This document shows positions 11,581-64,000 of a stretch of DNA of 64,000 nt, one piece after another. The translations under genes and the position numbers were made by a program. Position 1 is the first letter of the stretch; every line of letters begins with the position of its first letter. The notes beneath the pieces were generated by a model. That model was not told the origin of the DNA, ran no database searches, and saw nothing but the letters and a program-made list of their open reading frames with translations. Source of the DNA: Candidatus Falkowbacteria bacterium RIFOXYC2_FULL_36_12 (GTDB lineage Bacteria; Patescibacteriota; Patescibacteriia; UBA11705); NCBI GenBank assembly GCA_001778235.1, contig MFGJ01000001.1:69302-133301 (forward strand). The letters are read 5' to 3'.

Positions 11581-11730
11581 GGCGCCTCCTGTTTCAGGGT
11601 AAAAATAACCTTATAACAATCATTTAAGTATGTCAAACTAAATTTGAGCGCTCCAAGCATTTGTCATCTTTTTCTGACATTGTTTTGTGGCTAATTTTAG
11701 CAGAAAAGAACAAGGCTCCGTCAGCACCTA

Positions 11731-29467: not shown

Positions 29468-29497
29468 AAAAGCGGGAATATACCCGCTTTTGTATTA
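29468..29497 (+). terminator. Intrinsic terminator after groEL
   Basis: aaagcgggaatatacccgcttttgtatt. Confidence 0.6.
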
Positions 29498-29499
29498 GC

Positions 29500-29640
29500 A
29501 AAAAAACACTCCAGCGAATAGCTGGTGTGTGCGTTTAGAGGAGAGGTTGTTGAAAGTAGTGGCTAGCAATGAAATTTAAATGTAAGTTGTTGATTTGTTA
29601 AAACAAGTTTTTTTTAGAATAAGTGATTGATTACGCTTCG
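29500..29640 (+). repeat. Repeat module A, copy 1. It ends in a hairpin plus T-run. A second copy lies at 63760..63903.
   Basis: cgaatagctggtgtgtgcgtttagagg...gtagtggctagcaatg...gtaagttgttgat...tttttttagaataagtgattgatt is ~80% identical to 63764-63903. Confidence 0.7.
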
Positions 29641-29815
29641 CGTCTTACTTTTTGGTGGCAAAAAGTAAGCAAAAACCACTGGGTGAACAAATGCGAATTG
29701 TTTTTGTCAAGTTCGTGGTTTTGATGACGCGCTTGTTCACCCAGACCCGATGCTTGGCATGTTTGTGGGGTTGAATGTATAAAGTAAGTTATCATTTTGC
29801 TATAGCAGGTTTTTT
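29620..29815 (+). ncRNA. Repeat unit 1 of a tandem structured-RNA-like family. It has a 5' module, a variable stem, a 3' module and a terminator.
   Basis: 5' aagtgattgattacgcttcgcg + perfect hairpin cttactttttggtggcaaaaagtaag + caaaaaccactggg; variable stem gggtgaacaa/ttgttcaccc; 3' cccagacccgatgcttggcatgtttgtggggttgaa; terminator tgctatagca + T-run. Confidence 0.45.
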
Positions 29816-29820
29816 GAAAA

Positions 29821-30020
29821 AAGTGATTGATTGCGCTTTGCGCCTTACTTTTTGATGGCAAAAAGTAAGCAAAAACCACTGGGGGCTTTAATTGCTACTT
29901 ATGAAAATTATTTTGTGTTTTAAACACGGCAAGAAAGCCCCCAGACCCGATGCTTACCGTGTTCGTGGGGTTGAATAATAAAGTATGTGATTGGTATTGC
30001 TAAAGCAAGTTTTTTTGACA
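29821..30020 (+). ncRNA. Repeat unit 2 of the same family. Its variable stem (gggggcttt/aaagccccc) is compensatory to unit 1.
   Basis: Same 5' and 3' modules as unit 1; only the middle differs, with stem pairing preserved; terminator ttgctaaagcaa + T-run. Confidence 0.45.
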
Positions 30021-30107: not shown

Positions 30108-30318
30108 TTGTCACTCTGAACTTGTTTCAGAGTATAAAGGGATAGCTTGATTATACCTTGATTATACCCTGAAATCCATCTTCGTTAAAACTTCGATGGA
30201 CAAGTAAATTCAGAGCCTGCCCTGAATTAATTTCAGGGGTGACAAGTGAGAGTGTTGGTAGCGCGCATTACGCCCCCAGATTTGCCTTCATCAAGATTAC
30301 GGCAGGCAAGACCCGAGG
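30108..30318 (+). repeat. Composite of the hairpin ccctgaa-N-ttcaggg (inverted and direct copies) plus a ~100-nt conserved element, the long-form 3' module. It is homologous to 58703..58825.
   Basis: ggtgacaagtgagagtgttggtagcgcgcattacgcccccagatttgccttcatcaagattacggcaggcaagacccgaggctggtcatgttcgtggggttt matches 58724-58825 with few substitutions. Confidence 0.65.
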
Positions 30319-30433
30319 CTGGTCATGTTCGTGGGGTTTAATATTACTGAAGTTTTATTTTATTTTTGACAATCTTGCGTATATTGTGTAAGCTGAAAAA
30401 TGATTTTGTCCTTTTCACCAGACCGGAGGGAAA

Positions 30434-41390: not shown

Positions 41391-41855
41391 TTATTCAATT
41401 ATTATTTGTCTTTCTTGATCAGAAAGTTTGTTGCCTCCGGAGGCGGATGCCTTTACTTTGCGGATTTTTATTTTTGTAAAATTTATTTTAGATTTTTTGA
41501 ATTTTTTTTCAACTTTACTGCCCCATTCAATGAAAACAGCTGTTTGTGGATCATTTAAATATTCTTGTAAACCAATCTGAAACAGGTCTTCAGCCTCGAC
41601 TCGGTAGGCGTCTACATGTATCAATCTTTTGACTGAAGAATTTCTTTTTTTAACTGAATATATTTTCATTATAACAAATGTTGGGCTAGTTAGCCTATTT
41701 TTTATACCCAGTCCGGTGGCGATTCCTCGAATAAAAACGCTTTTTCCAGAACCGAGAGTTCCGTCTAATAAAAAAACTTCTCCGCCTTTTAGACTTGAGG
41801 AAAAGGTTGAAGCGAAATCAAGAGTTTTTTGTTCACAGTTAGAAAGATATGTCAT
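41391..41855 (-). CDS. tsaE: tRNA threonylcarbamoyladenosine biosynthesis protein TsaE (likely start MTYLSN)
   Basis: Walker A-like LDGTLGSGKSVFIRGI and the TsaE/YjeE pattern (LTSPTFVIMKIY). Confidence 0.7.
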   Translation of the reverse strand: MTYLSNCEQKTLDFASTFSSSLKGGEVFLLDGTLGSGKSVFIRGIATGLGIKNRLTSPTFVIMKIYSVKKRNSSVKRLIHVDAYRVEAEDLFQIGLQEYLNDPQTAVFIEWGSKVEKKFKKSKINFTKIKIRKVKASASGGNKLSDQERQIIIE

Positions 41856-41869
41856 AAAATTTAGTTGGG

Positions 41870-41995
41870 TTTCAACAAATTGCAAATCCGCTACAAATCT
41901 ACAAATAGTTGGTTTCAACAAATTGCAAATCCGCTACAAATCTACAAATAGTTGGTTTCAACAAATTGCAAATTCACTACAAATCTACAAATAGT
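41870..41995 (+). repeat. Three tandem copies of a ~41-bp repeat
   Basis: ccgctacaaatctacaaatagttggtttcaacaaattgcaaat x3, nearly identical. Confidence 0.8.
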
Positions 41996-42368
41996 TGGGT
42001 AGTATTCTTTTAAAGGTGACACCGTCATTATTAAATAGTGCCAAGATTCCAAGCTTGAGCCCCGATTGGGATAAGTAACCTTTAACTTGGTCAAAATCCT
42101 TCCTTGATAAACGATCTTTACATTTTAATTCAAGAATAATTTTGTCTTCAACAAGAAAATCAAAGTAATATTGACCTACTACTTCATCTTTAAATTTAAG
42201 CTTCGCACAAAGCTCCTTCGCATGTTTTAAACCAATATCACGAAATTCTTTTGAAACAGCACTCTGGTAATGTTTTTCTTTGTGCCCTGGCCCTAATTCA
42301 TTATAAACCTCAAATAAAACACCCACAATCTTATAACTCAATTCTTTATAAATCACTTTCTCGATCAT
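41985..42368 (-). CDS. GxxExxY-family protein (PD-(D/E)xK-like)
   Basis: GVLFEVY motif and the overall pattern of the GxxExxY family (KEFRDIGL...LELKCK). Confidence 0.6.
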   Translation of the reverse strand: MIEKVIYKELSYKIVGVLFEVYNELGPGHKEKHYQSAVSKEFRDIGLKHAKELCAKLKFKDEVVGQYYFDFLVEDKIILELKCKDRLSRKDFDQVKGYLSQSGLKLGILALFNNDGVTFKRILPNYL

Positions 42369-43468: not shown

Positions 43469-43557
43469 GTGGTTATTATAGCTTATAATTTTAGGGAAAG
43501 AAATACTGATACAATTTTGCTAGACATAAAAATATCATCCTACGATGATATTTTTAT

Positions 43558-43631
43558 GGTACTCCCAAGGGGAATTGAACCCCTGTTTTCAGGATGAAAA
43601 CCTGATGTCCTAACCACTAGACGATGGGAGC
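43558..43631 (-). tRNA. tRNA-Glu (anticodon TTC)
   Basis: Cloverleaf on the minus strand: acceptor GCTCCCA, D-arm GTCTAGTGGTTAGGAC, anticodon loop TTTTCAT, T-arm AGGGGTTCAATTCCCCT, CCA encoded. Confidence 0.8.
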
Positions 43632-43719
43632 AGAATTGGTTAACACTATAAAATTAAGTTACTTATTATTTATTTAATACTCCAGGATGTCTGCCAGAGG
43701 CAGATCCGCCTTTGGCGGG

Positions 43720-43783
43720 AAAACCTGATGTCCTAACCACTACCTACCTATCGGCAGGCAGGGACGATGGGAGATAAAATATT
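43720..43783 (-). pseudogene. Partial duplicate of the 5' half of tRNA-Glu with a 21-nt insertion, diverging at the anticodon loop
   Basis: gaaaacctgatgtcctaaccacta[cctacctatcggcaggcaggg]acgatgggag matches the 5' half of 43558..43631; the 3' half is replaced by the palindrome gatctgcctctggcagacatc. Confidence 0.55.
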
Positions 43784-53937: not shown

Positions 53938-54006
53938 ATACTTGAGATGTTCATAATTGAATGTTGTTGACTTTGTAACAAGTGCAGAGTGACAATTGTA
54001 ATTATA

Positions 54007-57600: not shown

Positions 57601-57620
57601 AATGTTTCACGTGAAACATT
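57601..57620. promoter_or_regulatory. 20-bp perfect palindrome aatgtttcacgtgaaacatt (copy 1); putative operator or recombination site
   Basis: Perfect dyad centred on CACGTG; an identical copy lies at 58450-58469. Confidence 0.5.
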
Positions 57621-57793
57621 TTATAATGTTATTATTTTTTAGAATATTTATATAACTTGAGTAAGCATTTATAAATATTCATATAGTGATCAATTGATGA
57701 TGAGATAACACATCTAATACCTAAAATATCCACTACACTATTTTAATCATACATACTAATATTGAGTATTTTGTGATTGAATTGTTAAATGAT

Positions 57794-58135
57794 TGATTTT
57801 AAAGTAAATTTAAACAAAATTTAGCTATTTGTATAGACTATTGTAGACAAACAGAAAATAAGTTAAATCCTGTTTTTAAAGTAAATTTAAACAAAAATAC
57901 GCGTTTGTATAGACCATTGTAGACATCTATGTGATATTTTCCGAGTAAATACCTATAATTTGCTAATAATCAACATTTTTATAGTAAATTTAAACAAAAA
58001 TTAGCGTTTGTATAGACTATTGTAGACATTTATAAAATTTTCTGTTAAAAATCTGAAATAACCCTACTTTTTTGATTTTAAAGTAAATTTAAACAAAAAA
58101 TAGCCCTAGATGTATAGACCATTGTGTACAAACAT
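57794..58135 (+). repeat. Array of four degenerate ~50-bp direct repeats (iteron-like)
   Basis: Core agtaaatttaaacaaaa...tttgtatagac[ct]attgtagaca at ~57797, 57875, 57977, 58075; spacers of ~28-50 bp differ. Confidence 0.7.
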
Positions 58136-58229: not shown

Positions 58230-58305
58230 TGGTGACCCCACCAGGACTTGAACCTGGATCAAAGGCTTAGGACGCCCCTATTCTATCCAATTGAACTATG
58301 GGATC
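58230..58305 (-). tRNA. tRNA-Arg (anticodon CCT)
   Basis: Cloverleaf: acceptor GATCCCA/TGGGGTC, anticodon loop GTCCTAA, T-arm CCAGGTTCAAGTCCTGG, CCA encoded. Confidence 0.75.
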
Positions 58306-58449: not shown

Positions 58450-58469
58450 AATGTTTCACGTGAAACATT
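58450..58469. promoter_or_regulatory. 20-bp perfect palindrome aatgtttcacgtgaaacatt (copy 2)
   Basis: Identical to 57601-57620. Confidence 0.5.
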
Positions 58470-58618
58470 TTTTATTTATAATAATATTTTTTTATTATTT
58501 TTACTAGAATTAAACATATTAAAGTGTCGTAAAATATTAATTATTTAATTATCAAAGAGTAAAAGTTTTGAAGAGTGATAATTAATATTCAAAACGCATG
58601 AAACAAGATTTCCTTTGG

Positions 58619-58919
58619 CCATGCACTATAAACAAGTTTAAGTGCATGGCGAGTAAGCTCGCTGTGGGAAAAGTTTCGAGTGAGGAATAAAAATTAATTA
58701 TTTATACCCTGAAACAAGTTCAGGGTGACAGGTGAGTGTGTTGGTGGCGCGCATTACCGCCCCAGACCTGCCTTCATCAAGATTACAGCAGGCAATCCCC
58801 GAGGTTAGTTATGTTCGTGGTTTTATCACGAGAGAAATTGTTTATACCCTGAAACAAGTTCAGGGTGACAAATTGGGAGATACTGAAACCATGCACTATA
58901 AGCAAGTTTAAGTGCATAG
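58619..58919 (+). repeat. Nested direct repeats. The outer hairpin ccatgcactataaacaagtttaagtgcatgg occurs twice. The inner tataccctgaaacaagttcagggtgaca occurs twice. The core is a ~100-nt conserved element.
   Basis: Outer copies at 58619-58649 and 58889-58919; inner copies at 58703-58730 and 58843-58870; core 58724-58825 is homologous to 30238-30318. Confidence 0.7.
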
Positions 58920-58966
58920 AGTGTAAGCTAAGGACAGGCTTCTCATCCTGTCTGTTTAAAATAAAA

Positions 58967-59043
58967 TGGCGTCCGAGACAGGATTCGAACCTGTGACCTA
59001 CAGCTTAGAAGGCTGTTGCTCTATCCAGCTGAGCTACTCGGAC
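58967..59043 (-). tRNA. tRNA-Arg (anticodon TCT)
   Basis: Cloverleaf: acceptor GTCCGAG/CTCGGAC, D-arm GCTCAGCTGGATAGAGC, anticodon loop CTTCTAA, T-arm ACAGGTTCGAATCCTGT, CCA encoded. Confidence 0.8.
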
Positions 59044-59159
59044 ACAATTATGAGGAAATTATAGCAAGAAACCTTCAGTAAGTCAATGATATAGTTGACA
59101 ATTGTTGTTTTTCAGACTATAATATATAGTTGTGAGTCCACAAAGGGGGAGAGATACTG

Positions 59160-59561
59160 ATGATGTACGGGAGCAACGAGATAAGACCTTTTCAGTATTT
59201 CAAATTTTTTATTTTTTTTGTTGCTGGGGTTGTTCTTTTTTACGCTATAACTACTGGCATTTCATTGATTGCTCTTGCACCTGAAATCGAGCAGGTGAGT
59301 AAATTGAAAAAAACATTTGGATTTGAATGTACTTTTCAGATCAGGTGTGCAGAAAAATTGCGGGGTGAAAAAAATATCTACGAAAAAGAGCTTGATTTCA
59401 ACACTTGTTTTCAGCACCTTGAAAGCAATGCATTGCAGGAAATCCTTGAGAACCATAACAGGGTAGTTGACCTCCTGCCGTGGTGGGCATTTAAGTCACA
59501 TCTGCATGAAAAATGTATGATCCCGACCTATCCCAATCAATGGGCTGAAGCTGAATTGTAA
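59160..59561 (+). CDS. Hypothetical membrane-anchored protein (133 aa)
   Basis: ORF with an N-terminal TM helix and Cys residues. Confidence 0.35.
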   Translation: MMYGSNEIRPFQYFKFFIFFVAGVVLFYAITTGISLIALAPEIEQVSKLKKTFGFECTFQIRCAEKLRGEKNIYEKELDFNTCFQHLESNALQEILENHNRVVDLLPWWAFKSHLHEKCMIPTYPNQWAEAEL

Positions 59562-59654: not shown

Positions 59655-60629
59655 TTATTTATTTTTTTTTGATAATGGTTTGCGTTTATTGTGAAAAGCT
59701 TTGTGAACATCTCTAAGTTGTTGATTGGTAATGTGAGTATATATCTGTGTAGTTGTAATGGATGAATGGCCAAGAATTGATTGGACTGAACGAATATCAG
59801 CACCATTCATTAGTAAATCAGTAGCAAAGCTATGACGCATAGTGTGCGGTGTTACACTTTGGTTTATACCTACAAGCTGGGCGTATTTTTTTACTATTCG
59901 TTCTAAACTTCTCGGAGTTAAGCCAATAAAATCTTTTTCTTCTGCAGTTGAATTATTACGAGCTTCAGCGGCTTTATCATGACCAATAAACAAAAACAAG
60001 TTTTTATCTTTGCGAAGCTTTCGATATTCCTGTATCCAATAACGAGCTTGGTTGGATAGAAAGGCGACTCGAATTTTGCCACCCTTACCGCGGATAGAAA
60101 ATTCTGTTTTTTTTATATTTAAATCTTTTTTTAAGCTCGCAAGCTCTGATACACGCATCCCGGTTGAAAAGAATAATTCAAGAATGGCTTTATCACGAAA
60201 TTGAATTATTTTGGGATTTTTTGACTTCAGCGGAGCATCAAGCAAATTGTACAAATCACTGCCTTCAAGAAAACCAACATGGCGCATCTGCAGACGAGCT
60301 AGTTCAACCTTTTCCGGAGCCAATGAACTAATATCTCGCTTGGCTAAATATTTCAAGAATGAACGGATAGCAATCAAATGATAATTTTGAGTGTTTTTTT
60401 GTAATGATTCTTTTGTTTTTGGATCTTTGAACCGATTGAGCCAAAGGCGAAAAAGTCTAACCGCATCGAGACTGATTTTTTCTGGAGTAGTTATATTTGA
60501 GCTCTTGAGCCAACCAGAAAAACGACGCAGATAGAAGTCATAATTGCGAATAGTGCGCTCGGTGCGTCCTTTGGCGACTTCTAAATCCTGAAGAAAGTCT
60601 GTGATTAATTTATCCAGTTTTGAAGACAT
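59655..60629 (-). CDS. xerC: Tyrosine recombinase, XerC/XerD-like
   Basis: C-terminal catalytic pattern HTMRHSFATDLLMNGADIRSVQSILGHSSITTTQIYTHI with a plausible nucleophile Tyr; N-terminal SAM-like core-binding domain. Confidence 0.8.
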   Translation of the reverse strand: MSSKLDKLITDFLQDLEVAKGRTERTIRNYDFYLRRFSGWLKSSNITTPEKISLDAVRLFRLWLNRFKDPKTKESLQKNTQNYHLIAIRSFLKYLAKRDISSLAPEKVELARLQMRHVGFLEGSDLYNLLDAPLKSKNPKIIQFRDKAILELFFSTGMRVSELASLKKDLNIKKTEFSIRGKGGKIRVAFLSNQARYWIQEYRKLRKDKNLFLFIGHDKAAEARNNSTAEEKDFIGLTPRSLERIVKKYAQLVGINQSVTPHTMRHSFATDLLMNGADIRSVQSILGHSSITTTQIYTHITNQQLRDVHKAFHNKRKPLSKKNK

Positions 60630-63730: not shown

Positions 63731-63754
63731 ACCGCTTCACAGCGGTTTTTTGTT
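63731..63754 (+). terminator. Intrinsic terminator after pnp
   Basis: accgcttcacagcggtttttt. Confidence 0.65.
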
Positions 63755-63759
63755 AACCT

Positions 63760-63945
63760 TAAAACCCACCGACGAATAGCCGGTATGTGCGTTTAAAAGA
63801 AAAACAATTGAATGTAGTGGCTAGCAGTGTAATTTAAGTGTAAGTTGTTGATGTTGCTATGGCAAATTTTTTTGAGAATAAGTGATTGATTTCGCTTTGC
63901 GTGGTCCACCGAAACCACGCACTATAAACAAGTTTAAGTGCATGG
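63760..63945 (+). repeat. Repeat module A, copy 2, followed by a cgtgg...ccacg hairpin and a copy of the cactataaacaagtttaagtgcatgg hairpin
   Basis: ~80% identical to 29500-29640; terminal hairpin shared with 58619-58649 and 58889-58919. Confidence 0.7.
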
Positions 63946-64000
63946 CAAGCAAGTTCGGTGCATGTTTTTGTAACCAGTTCTATTGAGATATAGTGATATT

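What the first reader, a model, noticed from the sequence alone, without database searches (positions are those of the whole stretch)
58600..58930. Nested direct repeats around a ~100-nt conserved core between two tRNA-Arg genes: successive insertions or a composite RNA
An outer 31-bp hairpin, ccatgcactataaacaagtttaagtgcatgg, occurs at 58619 and 58889. Inside it, a 28-bp hairpin, tataccctgaaacaagttcagggtgaca, occurs at 58703 and 58843. Inside that lies the ~100-nt core 58724-58825, homologous to 30238-30318. At the groEL locus the same 28-bp hairpin occurs in inverted orientation with compensatory changes (ctctgaa...ttcagag), so its structure is conserved. Nested direct repeats of hairpin sequences are what repeated site-specific insertions into hairpin targets would leave behind, or they could delimit processing sites of a composite transcript. 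The position between tRNA genes fits either reading.
Basis: seen in the sequence. Interest (0 to 1): 0.55.

Follow-up and report, generated by a model that had tools for sequence, protein, structure and literature searches.

The report
Pile-up of tiny mobile hairpin repeats
The spacer between two arginine tRNA genes of a Candidatus Falkowbacteria genome is filled with copies of several families of 25-35-base hairpin repeats, some lying inside the loops of others. This is a REP-like kind of selfish or junk DNA, not a composite RNA gene.

Summary

- **Inner hairpin (F1).** It fits most features of the published CGTC/TGTC-tagged REP superfamily: an 8-bp stem, a 5-nt loop and an unpaired GACA tail. 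Its exact 25-mer recurs in uncultivated viral contigs of 36-60% GC. The wider family, in contigs of 28-60% GC, has fully compensatory stem variants.
- **Outer hairpin (F2, 35 nt).** It is a separate small element that lies inside F1 loops.
- **The "core".** It is modular and carries a 31-nt hairpin (F3). Clean empty sites for F3 exist in the same window.
- **Three-state site.** One F1 site occurs empty, F2-filled or F5-filled, always at GAAA^CAAG.

These indels split the host sequence cleanly and show no target duplication. The nested direct repeats are therefore four co-oriented F1 units, two of them carrying F2. They are not insertion footprints.

Orthologous tRNA-Arg spacers in three related species lack the whole array. 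No Rfam family matches, and the window holds no transposase gene.

The most likely mechanism is trans-mobilised single-strand hairpin transposition; this is inferred, not shown. I rate it a new variant of a known kind, of moderate interest.

The parts
58230..58305 (-). tRNA-Arg(CCT), a flanking gene that is not part of the repeats
   Evidence: ARAGORN and Rfam tRNA model, 56 bits.
58967..59043 (-). tRNA-Arg(TCT), a flanking gene. It has its own strong promoter-like site on the minus strand at 59086-59058.
58619..58653 (+). It is a 31-nt bulged hairpin plus the 4-nt tail CGAG. The sequence after it (TAAGCTCGCTGTGGGA) resembles a decayed 3' half of an F1 hairpin.
   Evidence: The paralog in L149 has an intact F1 5' half (TTTATACCCTGAAA) directly in front of F2.
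58706..58730 (+). It forms the 5' end of the composite core-type element.
58731..58835 (+). Body of the core-type composite repeat. It runs AGTGAG.., then a small optional hairpin GGTGGCGCGCATTACCGCC, then CCCCAGA, F3, and CCCCGAGG..GTTCGTGG...
   Evidence: Seven distinct copies were recovered, each preceded by an F1. The 17-nt segment GGTGGCGCGCATTACCG is absent from the L149 paralog.
58767..58797 (+). F3, a 31-nt hairpin element inside the core: stem CCTGCC, 14-nt loop TTCATCAAGATTAC, stem AGCAGG, tail CAAT, plus one C.
   Evidence: About 20 distinct copies in differing contexts. Alignment A3 shows a clean 31-nt indel against empty paralogs.
58846..58870 (+). F1 copy, the second 'inner hairpin', intact here. 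The paralogous unit in L149 carries F5 in its loop.
58880..58936 (+). A decayed F1 unit carrying F2 copy 2 in its loop. The 5' half is ATACTGAAA, F2 occupies 58889-58923, and the 3' half is TAAGCTAAGGACA.
   Evidence: The F1 halves were identified by eye against the intact filled site in L162.
63915..63949 (+). F2 copy 3, a solo copy with no nested content. It sits inside an F1-like hairpin (CACCGAAA ... CAAGTTCGGTG), about 170 nt beyond the pnp terminator.
30109..30136 (-). F1 copy with the compensatory stem ACTCTGAA/TTCAGAGT. This is the empty state of the three-state site.
   Evidence: Alignment A1 compares it with L162 (F2-filled) and L157 (F5-filled).
30162..30243 (+). An F1 unit with F5 in its loop (F5 = 30175-30204, TCCATCTTCGTTAAAACTTCGATGGA plus CAAG). 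It is followed by a second F1 with loop TTAAT (30221-30243) that leads into core B.
30244..30334 (+). Body of core copy B. Its F3 lies at 30281-30311.
29740..29778 (+). Empty F3 target inside a repeated module, CCCAGA^CCCGATGCTTGGCATGTTTGTGGGG. The junction is at 29745|29746.
   Evidence: alignment A3, against L146 and L153.
29940..29980 (+). Second empty F3 target, CCCAGA^CCCGATGCTTACCGTGTTCGTGGGG. The junction is at 29945|29946.
   Evidence: alignment A3, against L163.

Best explanation
**What it is (shown)**

The region 58600-58940 is a pile-up of miniature palindromic repeat elements in a fast-evolving spacer. It is not one nested unit. Read on the + strand it is:
1. A decayed F1 with F2 in its loop.
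2. An intact F1.
3. The body of a composite repeat, carrying the 31-nt hairpin F3.
4. An intact F1.
5. A decayed F1 with F2 in its loop.

F1 fits most features of the CGTC/TGTC-tagged REP superfamily. F2 (35 nt), F3 (31 nt) and F5 (30 nt) were found here only in this Falkowbacteria genome and in the metagenome contigs that hold its repeat copies. All three share one design: a hairpin followed by a 4-nt tail (CGAG or CAAG).

**How it most likely works (inferred)**
- The units move, or moved, as single-stranded hairpins.
- A trans-acting enzyme, not encoded nearby, inserts them with no target duplication, 3' of a short purine-rich site. The site is GAAA^ in F1 loops and CAGA^ in the module that hosts F3.
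- This resembles HUH/Y1 (IS200/IS605 or RAYT-type) transposition.
- Loops of existing hairpins are preferred targets because they are exposed when the DNA is single-stranded.
- Once built, composites are also copied as blocks.

**Status of the steps**
- Shown: element boundaries, clean filled/empty pairs, copy numbers, stem covariation, and absence from relatives.
- Inferred: the direction of each event (insertion or precise excision), the single-strand intermediate, and the enzyme.
For: **The repeats are real and multi-copy**
- Repeats confirmed.
- Census over 221 kb of this genome:

| Family | Copies |
|---|---|
| F1 intact | 23 |
| F1 interrupted | at least 9 |
| F2 | 6 |
| F3 | 24 |
| F5 | 10 |

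**F1 is a structured family**
- 35 IMG/VR stretches match A-NN-CTGAAACAAGTTCAG-NN-TGACA.
- Stem variants among them and the 3 window copies: ATCC/GGAT 12, ATGC/GCAT 12, ACCC/GGGT 8, ATTC/GAAT 7, ACTC/GAGT 1. One copy breaks pairing. Contig GC ranges from 28 to 60%.
- F1 features match the description of CGTC REPs in PMC3733652.

**Clean filled/empty pairs**
- Three-state site: empty, +35-nt F2 or +30-nt F5, all at GAAA^CAAG, with conserved flanks (A1).
- All 10 F5 copies lie in F1 loops, across three F1 stem types. Five of the six F2 copies lie in recognisable F1 or F1-like loops.
- F3 is a clean 31-nt indel between paralogs that are otherwise about 90% identical (A3).
- F3 lies behind at least seven different upstream contexts.
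- The L149 paralog of region A differs by an F5 insertion and a 17-nt hairpin indel (A2).

**Strand and lineage**
- All 10 F3 matches on the 520-kb contig of the same genome are on one strand.
- The orthologous spacers of three related species lack the array.
- No F1-type hairpin occurs in about 38 kb of those loci.

**Precedent**
- PMC3733652 reports REPs inside small target palindromes and notes that CGTC REPs lack a dedicated transposase.
Against: - No transposase was identified. The 64-kb window holds only housekeeping genes.
This negative is weak.
- All filled/empty pairs are between paralogs in one genome. No orthologous polymorphism between strains was seen, so recent mobility is not shown.
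- Precise deletion or gene conversion could produce the same indels.
- F2, F3 and F5 each lie in one kind of context, which homology-driven spread would also explain.
- I found no clean empty site for F1 itself.
- The 5' side of F2 copy 1 (58596-58618) is not a recognisable F1 half.
Confidence: 0.6

Rival explanations
1. No transposition is involved. The families are variable apical parts of multi-copy palindromes, and they spread only by gene conversion, template switching or replication slippage between existing copies. The conserved hairpin arms (TTTATACYCTGAAA / CAAGTTCAGRGTGACA, and CCCCAGA / CCCCGAKG) would serve as the short homologies. The indels would then be precise hairpin deletions or conversions.
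For: - F2 and F5 are found almost only inside F1 loops, always at the same point.
- F3 is found only between CCCAGA and CCCGAKG.
- Whole composites are duplicated as blocks.
- Three-state sites lie in paralogous blocks, not at orthologous loci.
- No transposase was found.
Against: - F5 lies in F1 units with three different stems (ACCC, ATCC, ACTC). That leaves only 6 and 9 nt of shared sequence to drive conversion.
- F3 lies behind at least seven different upstream contexts.
- The shared design of a hairpin plus a 4-nt tail, and the clean junctions, fit enzyme-defined ends.
- F1 itself is spread over unrelated contigs of 28-60% GC. Conversion cannot do that.
Confidence: 0.25
2. The hairpins act in RNA. 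They would be 3'-end stabilisers, terminators or processing sites of a tRNA-Arg(TCT)-spacer-tRNA-Arg(CCT) transcript, or the array would encode a composite small RNA.
For: - The region folds better than shuffles on both strands: z = -4.65 on the + strand and -5.35 on the - strand.
- No canonical terminator follows tRNA-Arg(TCT) in the window, whereas the relative L106 has one (by eye).
- REPs are reported to act as RNA elements in other bacteria (PMC3733652).
Against: - No Rfam match, even at E <= 10.
- The array is absent from the same spacer in three related species. Those spacers keep only two short boxes in front of the second tRNA.
- Each tRNA has its own promoter-like site.
- The same units lie beyond the pnp terminator.
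- F1 orientation is unrelated to flanking genes, 72 same strand against 67 opposite.
- Differences between copies of F2 and F3 break pairs rather than compensate.
- The core is not coding: by eye, most differences between copies A and B change the amino acid.
Confidence: 0.08
3. The direct repeats are attL/attR-type footprints of successive site-specific integrations next to tRNA genes, made by the neighbouring tyrosine recombinase at 59655-60629.
For: The region is flanked by tRNA genes, with a Phage_integrase-family gene about 700 nt away.
Against: - The recombinase is the housekeeping Xer type. It keeps 58-75% identity across many other Patescibacteria and holds the same syntenic position in relatives that lack the repeats.
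- The interior is only 105-270 nt, with no cargo.
- The repeats are not tRNA 3' ends.
- Solo copies of each hairpin exist elsewhere.
- Real filled/empty pairs show no duplicated hairpin.
Confidence: 0.03

Closest known systems
CGTC/TGTC-tagged REP superfamily (Di Nocera, De Gregorio and Rocco 2013, BMC Genomics 14:522, PMC3733652)
   Same: - Read on the minus strand, F1 has the unpaired tag TGTC. In the viral copies the tag is TGTC or CGTC.
- 8-bp stem, 5-nt loop and a short unpaired tail.
- Dispersed and intergenic, often in inverted pairs.
- Stems vary by compensatory changes.
- No dedicated transposase.
- The paper also reports REPs lying inside small target palindromes.
   Different: - The host phylum, Patescibacteria/CPR, and uncultivated viral contigs are not among the five phyla listed in the paper.
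- In the window variant the second stem pair is C-G, not A-T.
- The tail is ATA or CTN, not CCA.
- In region A the units are direct, not inverted.
- Smaller hairpin elements lying inside F1 loops are not described in what I read of the paper. I read the outline and term-search excerpts, not the full text.
REPINs mobilised by RAYT, and IS200/IS605-derived hairpin elements (HUH/Y1 single-strand transposition)
   Same: - A hairpin plus a short conserved unpaired motif.
- Indels with no target duplication.
- Insertion 3' of a short target.
- Same-strand hairpins.
- Strand bias: all 10 F3 matches on the 520-kb contig are on one strand.
   Different: - There is no GTAG tag.
- No RAYT or TnpA gene was found in the sequence sampled.
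- The units are single hairpins of 25-35 nt, not doublets or elements bounded by left and right ends.
Small dispersed repeats (SDR, 21-27 nt) of Nostoc. Elhai et al. 2008, Genome Res 18:1484, is listed in the references of PMC3116915. The paper is not held in the library, so details are from memory.
   Same: Very small repeats (under 40 nt) that behave as mobile insertions. They are hairpin-forming, found inside other repeats, and have no known enzyme.
   Different: A different phylum and different sequences. I could not check the paper's defining features.
IS elements that target REP loops, such as IS1397 into palindromic units of BIMEs (references 41 and 42 in PMC3116915)
   Same: A hairpin or REP serves as a specific insertion target.
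   Different: Here the inserts are 30-35-nt hairpins with no coding capacity, not full insertion sequences.

Membership tests
CGTC/TGTC-tagged REP superfamily (PMC3733652) | Unpaired 4-nt tag CGTC (or the variant TGTC) at one end of the palindrome | tested here: met
   - All three intact window copies end in GACA, which reads TGTC on the other strand.
- Viral copies end in GACA or GACG.
CGTC/TGTC-tagged REP superfamily (PMC3733652) | Stem of 8-9 bp and loop of 4-5 nt | tested here: met
   8-bp perfect stem and 5-nt loop.
CGTC/TGTC-tagged REP superfamily (PMC3733652) | Complementary A-T residues at the first and second stem positions | tested here: inconclusive
   - The first pair is always A-T.
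- The second pair is T-A in 31 of the 41 sequences tabulated.
- It is C-G in most of the rest, the ACCC and ACTC variants. All three window copies are of this kind.
CGTC/TGTC-tagged REP superfamily (PMC3733652) | 3-nt unpaired tail, mostly CCA | tested here: not met
   The tail is ATA in this genome and CTN in the viral contigs. A tail exists but does not fit CCA.
CGTC/TGTC-tagged REP superfamily (PMC3733652) | Mostly organised as inverted dimers | tested here: inconclusive
   - Inverted pairs occur at 30109(-)/30162(+) and in many viral contigs.
- Region A holds direct units only.
GTAG REP / REPIN with RAYT | GTAG tag, and a RAYT gene flanked by the repeats | tested here: not met
   - There is no GTAG tag.
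- No Y1 transposase was found among 216 ORFs (weak).
- None of the window's genes carries such a domain.
IS200/IS605-type single-strand transposition (mechanism, not membership) | Insertion 3' of a short specific target, no target duplication, clean empty sites | tested here: met
   Alignments A1, A2 and A3 show clean 35-, 30-, 31- and 17-nt indels at GAAA^ or CAGA^, with no duplicated flank.
IS200/IS605-type single-strand transposition (mechanism, not membership) | A Y1 HUH transposase in the genome | not testable with these tools
   Only about 285 kb of the genome could be read, and none was found there. The whole genome cannot be scanned with these tools.
Classical MITE | Terminal inverted repeats flanked by a target-site duplication | tested here: not met
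   No duplication at any junction.
CRISPR array or integron attC | CRISPR: regularly spaced repeats with unique spacers and cas genes. attC: sites of 57 nt or more with R and L boxes. | tested here: not met
   - Each hairpin has only two copies in this spacer, 140 and 270 nt apart.
- No cas or intI genes.
- The units are 25-35 nt.
- No CRISPR match in the tRNA-Arg region. One weak sub-threshold CRISPR-DR63 hit (24.7 bits against a gathering score of 37, E = 0.18) lies at 29885-29924, outside the repeat units.

The most novel reading that the evidence does not exclude
A set of hairpin elements only 25-35 nt long is still mobile in a reduced CPR genome, each built as a hairpin plus a 4-nt tail. 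They insert with no target duplication into the loops of one another, using an enzyme that is not a recognisable RAYT or IS200 transposase. One family (F1) is shared word for word with uncultivated viral contigs of 36-60% GC. That would point to a phage-borne or very broadly conserved mobilising activity for the 'orphan' CGTC-type REPs.
Probability: 0.25. Interest if true: 0.65.

Novelty: new variant of a known kind. Interest (0 to 1): 0.4.

Why it matters
- CGTC-type REPs are widespread, but no enzyme that moves them is known.
- This genome offers unusually clean material for that problem: a three-state insertion site, 30-35-nt inserts with defined ends, and a strict one-strand bias on a 520-kb contig.
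- All of this sits in a small Patescibacteria genome of roughly 1 Mb, where few candidate genes could be responsible.
- It also shows that the unusually long intergenic regions of this organism are repeat pile-ups rather than unannotated RNA genes. This matters when such regions are annotated.

Tried and rejected
- **Rfam:** nothing beyond the tRNAs for the window, for both repeat loci at E <= 10, or for six viral loci.
- **Viral contigs:** no match for F2, the core, F3 or F5.
- **Cultured phages:** only partial chance matches to F1.
- **Literature:** full-text searches for the hairpin sequence found nothing relevant. The Elhai 2008 paper is not held.
- **The 133-aa neighbouring gene:** it has no homologues, so it could not lead to relatives. 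The Xer gene was used instead.
- **A gene shared by the F1-bearing viral contigs:** none found; the largest cluster covers 5 of 35 loci.
- **Empty sites for F1 itself:** the candidates turned out to be reshuffled clusters.
- **Promoter reading of the GACA tail (TTGACA-like):** rejected by eye, because no -10 box lies at the right spacing.
- **Coding reading of the core:** rejected by eye, because most differences between copies A and B change the amino acid.
- **Orthology of the three-state site with the groEL locus:** rejected. tblastn with GroEL and neighbouring proteins found nothing in those loci, so the copies are paralogous blocks.
- **My own first reading of 30162-30243 as one split hairpin:** replaced by an F1 carrying F5, followed by a second F1.

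Full report
**1. The observation**

- The outer hairpin lies at 58619-58649 and 58889-58919. The repeat extends to 41 nt at 90% identity, and a third copy lies at 63915-63945.
- The inner hairpin lies at 58703-58730 and 58843-58870. The two copies are identical within a 35-nt repeat (97% identity).
- An inverted copy at 30109-30136 has the compensatory change CTCTGAA/TTCAGAG.
- Neither pattern matched once in 100 dinucleotide-preserving shuffles.
- The core 58723-58820 matches 30237-30334 at 87% identity.
- The two tRNA-Arg genes (CCT and TCT) are on the minus strand.
- The locus is identical in independent assemblies from ENA, JGI and Logan, so it is not an assembly artefact.

**2. The organism and the orthologous loci**

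- The neighbouring tyrosine recombinase (59655-60629) carries the NCBI name of Candidatus Falkowbacteria bacterium RIFOXYD2_FULL_35_9. It is the housekeeping Xer type, 58-75% identical in many other Patescibacteria.
- Loci around its 72-75% identical homologues keep the gene order pnp, rpsO, xer, tRNA-Arg(TCT), spacer, tRNA-Arg(CCT), PF1765, Sua5.
- The spacer is 319, 397 and 541 nt in the relatives, against 661 nt in the window.
- Only two short boxes in front of the second tRNA are conserved: TTTTACGACACTT and the palindrome TGTTTCACGTGAAAC.
- Nothing from 58560-58960 is present in the relatives.
- About 38 kb of those loci holds no hairpin of the inner type.
- All genes in the 64-kb window are housekeeping. 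None encodes a transposase, a reverse transcriptase or an HUH protein.

**3. The inner hairpin (F1) belongs to a cosmopolitan REP family**

- The 25-mer ACCCTGAAACAAGTTCAGGGTGACA occurs exactly in six IMG/VR contigs of 36-60% GC.
- The relaxed pattern A-NN-CTGAAACAAGTTCAG-NN-TGACA occurs in 35 IMG/VR stretches of 28-60% GC.
- The free stem positions are complementary in 40 of 41 sequences (38 viral and 3 window). The variants are ATCC/GGAT 12, ATGC/GCAT 12, ACCC/GGGT 8, ATTC/GAAT 7 and ACTC/GAGT 1.
- Nearly every viral copy is preceded by AG.
- Sibling units with other loops and stems lie nearby in both orientations, often as inverted pairs or dense clusters.
- Similarity between contigs is limited to the 25-29-nt unit.
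- No gene is shared by these contigs.
- The units are intergenic in 66 of 72 cases and show no orientation bias toward flanking genes, 72 same strand against 67 opposite.
- Rfam has nothing, and cultured phages lack the unit.

Read on the other strand, the unit is TGTC or CGTC, an 8-bp stem, a 5-nt loop, the second arm of the stem, and a short tail. This matches most of the description of the CGTC-tagged REP superfamily in PMC3733652:
- The tag is often TGTC.
- Stems are 8-9 bp and begin with A-T.
- Loops are 4-5 nt.
- There is a 3-nt tail.
- Units mostly form inverted dimers.
- The family is known from Proteobacteria, Chlorobi, Bacteroidetes, Spirochaetes and Thermotogae.
- No dedicated transposase is known.
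- Some REPs lie inside small target palindromes.

F1 departs from that description in its tail sequence. The window variant also differs in its second stem pair.

**4. The core is composite and carries its own mini-hairpin (F3)**

- A metagenome scan with CCAGA-N6-TTCATCAAGATTAC gave 27 loci, about 20 of them real.
- Ten matches, in eight stretches of DNA, lie on one 520-kb contig, all on one strand.
- That contig belongs to the same organism as the window. Its DnaK is 100% identical to the protein recorded for RIFOXYD2_FULL_35_9.
- The truly repeated unit is a 31-nt hairpin: stem CCTGCC, loop TTCATCAAGATTAC, stem GGCAGG, tail CAAG, plus one base.
- F3 always lies between CCCAGA and CCCGAKG, but behind at least seven different upstream contexts.
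- The window holds two empty versions of this site, at 29745|29746 and 29945|29946.
- Alignment A3 shows a clean 31-nt indel between these and filled paralogs that are otherwise about 90% identical over some 85 nt upstream and 25 nt downstream.
Each is preceded by an F1 and continues GTGACA-AGTGAG.
- The paralog in L149 lacks a further 17-nt hairpin segment of the core.

**5. Hairpins inside hairpins**

- F5 (TCCATCTTCGTTAAAACTTCGATGGA plus CAAG, 30 nt) has 10 distinct copies. All lie in an F1 loop between CTGAAA and CAAGTTCAG, in F1 units with three different stems.
- The outer hairpin F2 (31-nt hairpin plus CGAG, 35 nt) lies at the same point in an intact F1 in L162 and L145.
- F2 also lies in recognisable or decayed F1 hosts at L149, 58880-58936 and 63905-63960.
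- Alignment A1 shows one homologous site in three states, with conserved flanks:
  - empty (window 30109-30136);
  - F2-filled (L162);
  - F5-filled (L157).
- These copies are paralogous blocks, not the groEL locus of another strain.
- F2, F3 and F5 are absent from IMG/VR.
- As single-stranded DNA, the hairpins fold as follows:

| Element | Folding energy (kcal/mol) | Stem and loop |
|---|---|---|
| F1 | -7.6 | 8-bp stem, 5-nt loop |
| F2 | -10.4 | bulged 13-bp stem, 4-nt loop |
| F3 | -5.4 | 6-bp stem, 14-nt loop |
| F5 | -3.2 | 6-bp stem, 14-nt loop |

**6. Re-reading 58600-58940**

On the + strand the region is:
1. F2 copy 1, followed by a decayed F1 3' half.
2. An intact F1 at 58706-58730.
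3. The core body at 58731-58835, with F3 at 58767-58797.
4. An intact F1 at 58846-58870.
5. A decayed F1 at 58880-58936, with F2 copy 2 in its loop.

The paralog in L149 carries the same block from F2 to the third F1. There it has an intact F1 5' half in front of F2 and F5 in the third F1. The two 'layers' are therefore four co-oriented F1 units, two of them carrying F2. In every filled/empty pair the host sequence is split at one point with no target duplication; the hairpin is never duplicated. Direct repeats are thus not the signature of these insertions.

**7. Mechanism**

- Shown: discrete ends, clean indels, one design shared by the families (a hairpin plus a 4-nt tail), targets 3' of GAAA or CAGA, multi-copy dispersal, one-strand bias of F3, and absence from related species.
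- These features are what single-strand transposition by HUH/Y1 enzymes produces. That mechanism is known for IS200/IS605 and has been proposed for REPs with RAYT (general knowledge; PMC3733652, PMC3116915).
- The enzyme is not identified. A memory-typed TnpA and RAYT query found nothing in 216 ORFs, which is weak evidence.
- Spread by conversion or template switching among existing copies is the main rival. It explains the narrow host context of F2, F3 and F5.
- It is harder to reconcile with F5 occurring in three F1 stem types, and with F1 occurring in unrelated contigs.
- An RNA role finds little support:
  - Nothing in Rfam.
  - No conservation in relatives.
  - The wrong strand relative to the tRNA genes.
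  - A position beyond the pnp terminator.
  - Non-compensating differences between copies of F2 and F3.
- Nested att sites are contradicted by the filled/empty pairs and by the housekeeping nature of Xer.

**8. Verdict**

- The thing is a REP-like repeat pile-up. It extends a known kind to a new phylum and adds an unusual layer: 30-35-nt hairpins that lie in REP loops.
- Novelty: a new variant of a known kind.
- Interest: 0.4.

Noticed in passing
window 43680-43775: Next to tRNA-Glu (43557-43631, minus strand) lies a second tRNA-Glu-like sequence that ARAGORN does not call. It repeats the 24 nt at 43596-43619 exactly, and the homology continues after an interruption by a 21-nt mini-hairpin (CCTACC-TATC-GGCAGG plus CAGG). 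The insert has nearly the same stem as F3 and resembles the insert in the F1 loop of L157. It may be a tRNA pseudogene or a tRNA disrupted by a mini-element.
   Followed up: partly
window 58450-58469 and 58523-58537, and again at 57601-57622: The palindrome TGTTTCACGTGAAACA and the box TTTTACGACACTT lie upstream of tRNA-Arg(CCT) and are conserved in four Falkowbacteria species (L106, L108, L110). They may be a promoter or operator for the tRNA. The palindrome recurs about 850 nt away.
   Followed up: partly
window 29485-29643 and 63743-63902: The regions downstream of groEL and of pnp share a 160-nt module at 79% identity. It is part of a larger set of repeated modules that fill about 1 kb after groEL; 29579-29815 also matches 29781-30015.
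   Followed up: partly
window 57784-58134: Diverged tandem-like repeats of roughly 100 nt lie between the 114-aa ORF and tRNA-Arg(CCT). They are partly conserved in relatives: 58069-58171 matches L110 8275-8376 at 81%.
   Followed up: no
window 53972-53997 and 11590-11608: A decayed F1 copy (ACTTTGTAACAAGTGCAGAGTGACAA) follows a terminator-like hairpin. A possible F1 half-site (ACCCTGAAACAGGAG on the minus strand) lies just upstream of a gene.
   Followed up: partly
L147, L153, L161, L163 (upstream of the F3-bearing modules): Tracts built from CCTGCC/GGCAGG units (for example ctgcctgccgcctgcctgcctgtaggcagggtaggcaggc) lie next to several repeat modules. The motif is the same as the F3 stem.
   Followed up: no
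window 59160-59561: The 133-aa ORF next to tRNA-Arg(TCT) has a perfect sigma-70-type promoter match (59095-59123). It has no homologue outside its own 90% cluster among 5.8 billion proteins.
   Followed up: partly
window 41862-41912 and 41949-41998: A 51-nt direct repeat at 94% identity overlaps the 5' end of the minus-strand ORF 41391-41921. I did not examine it.
   Followed up: no
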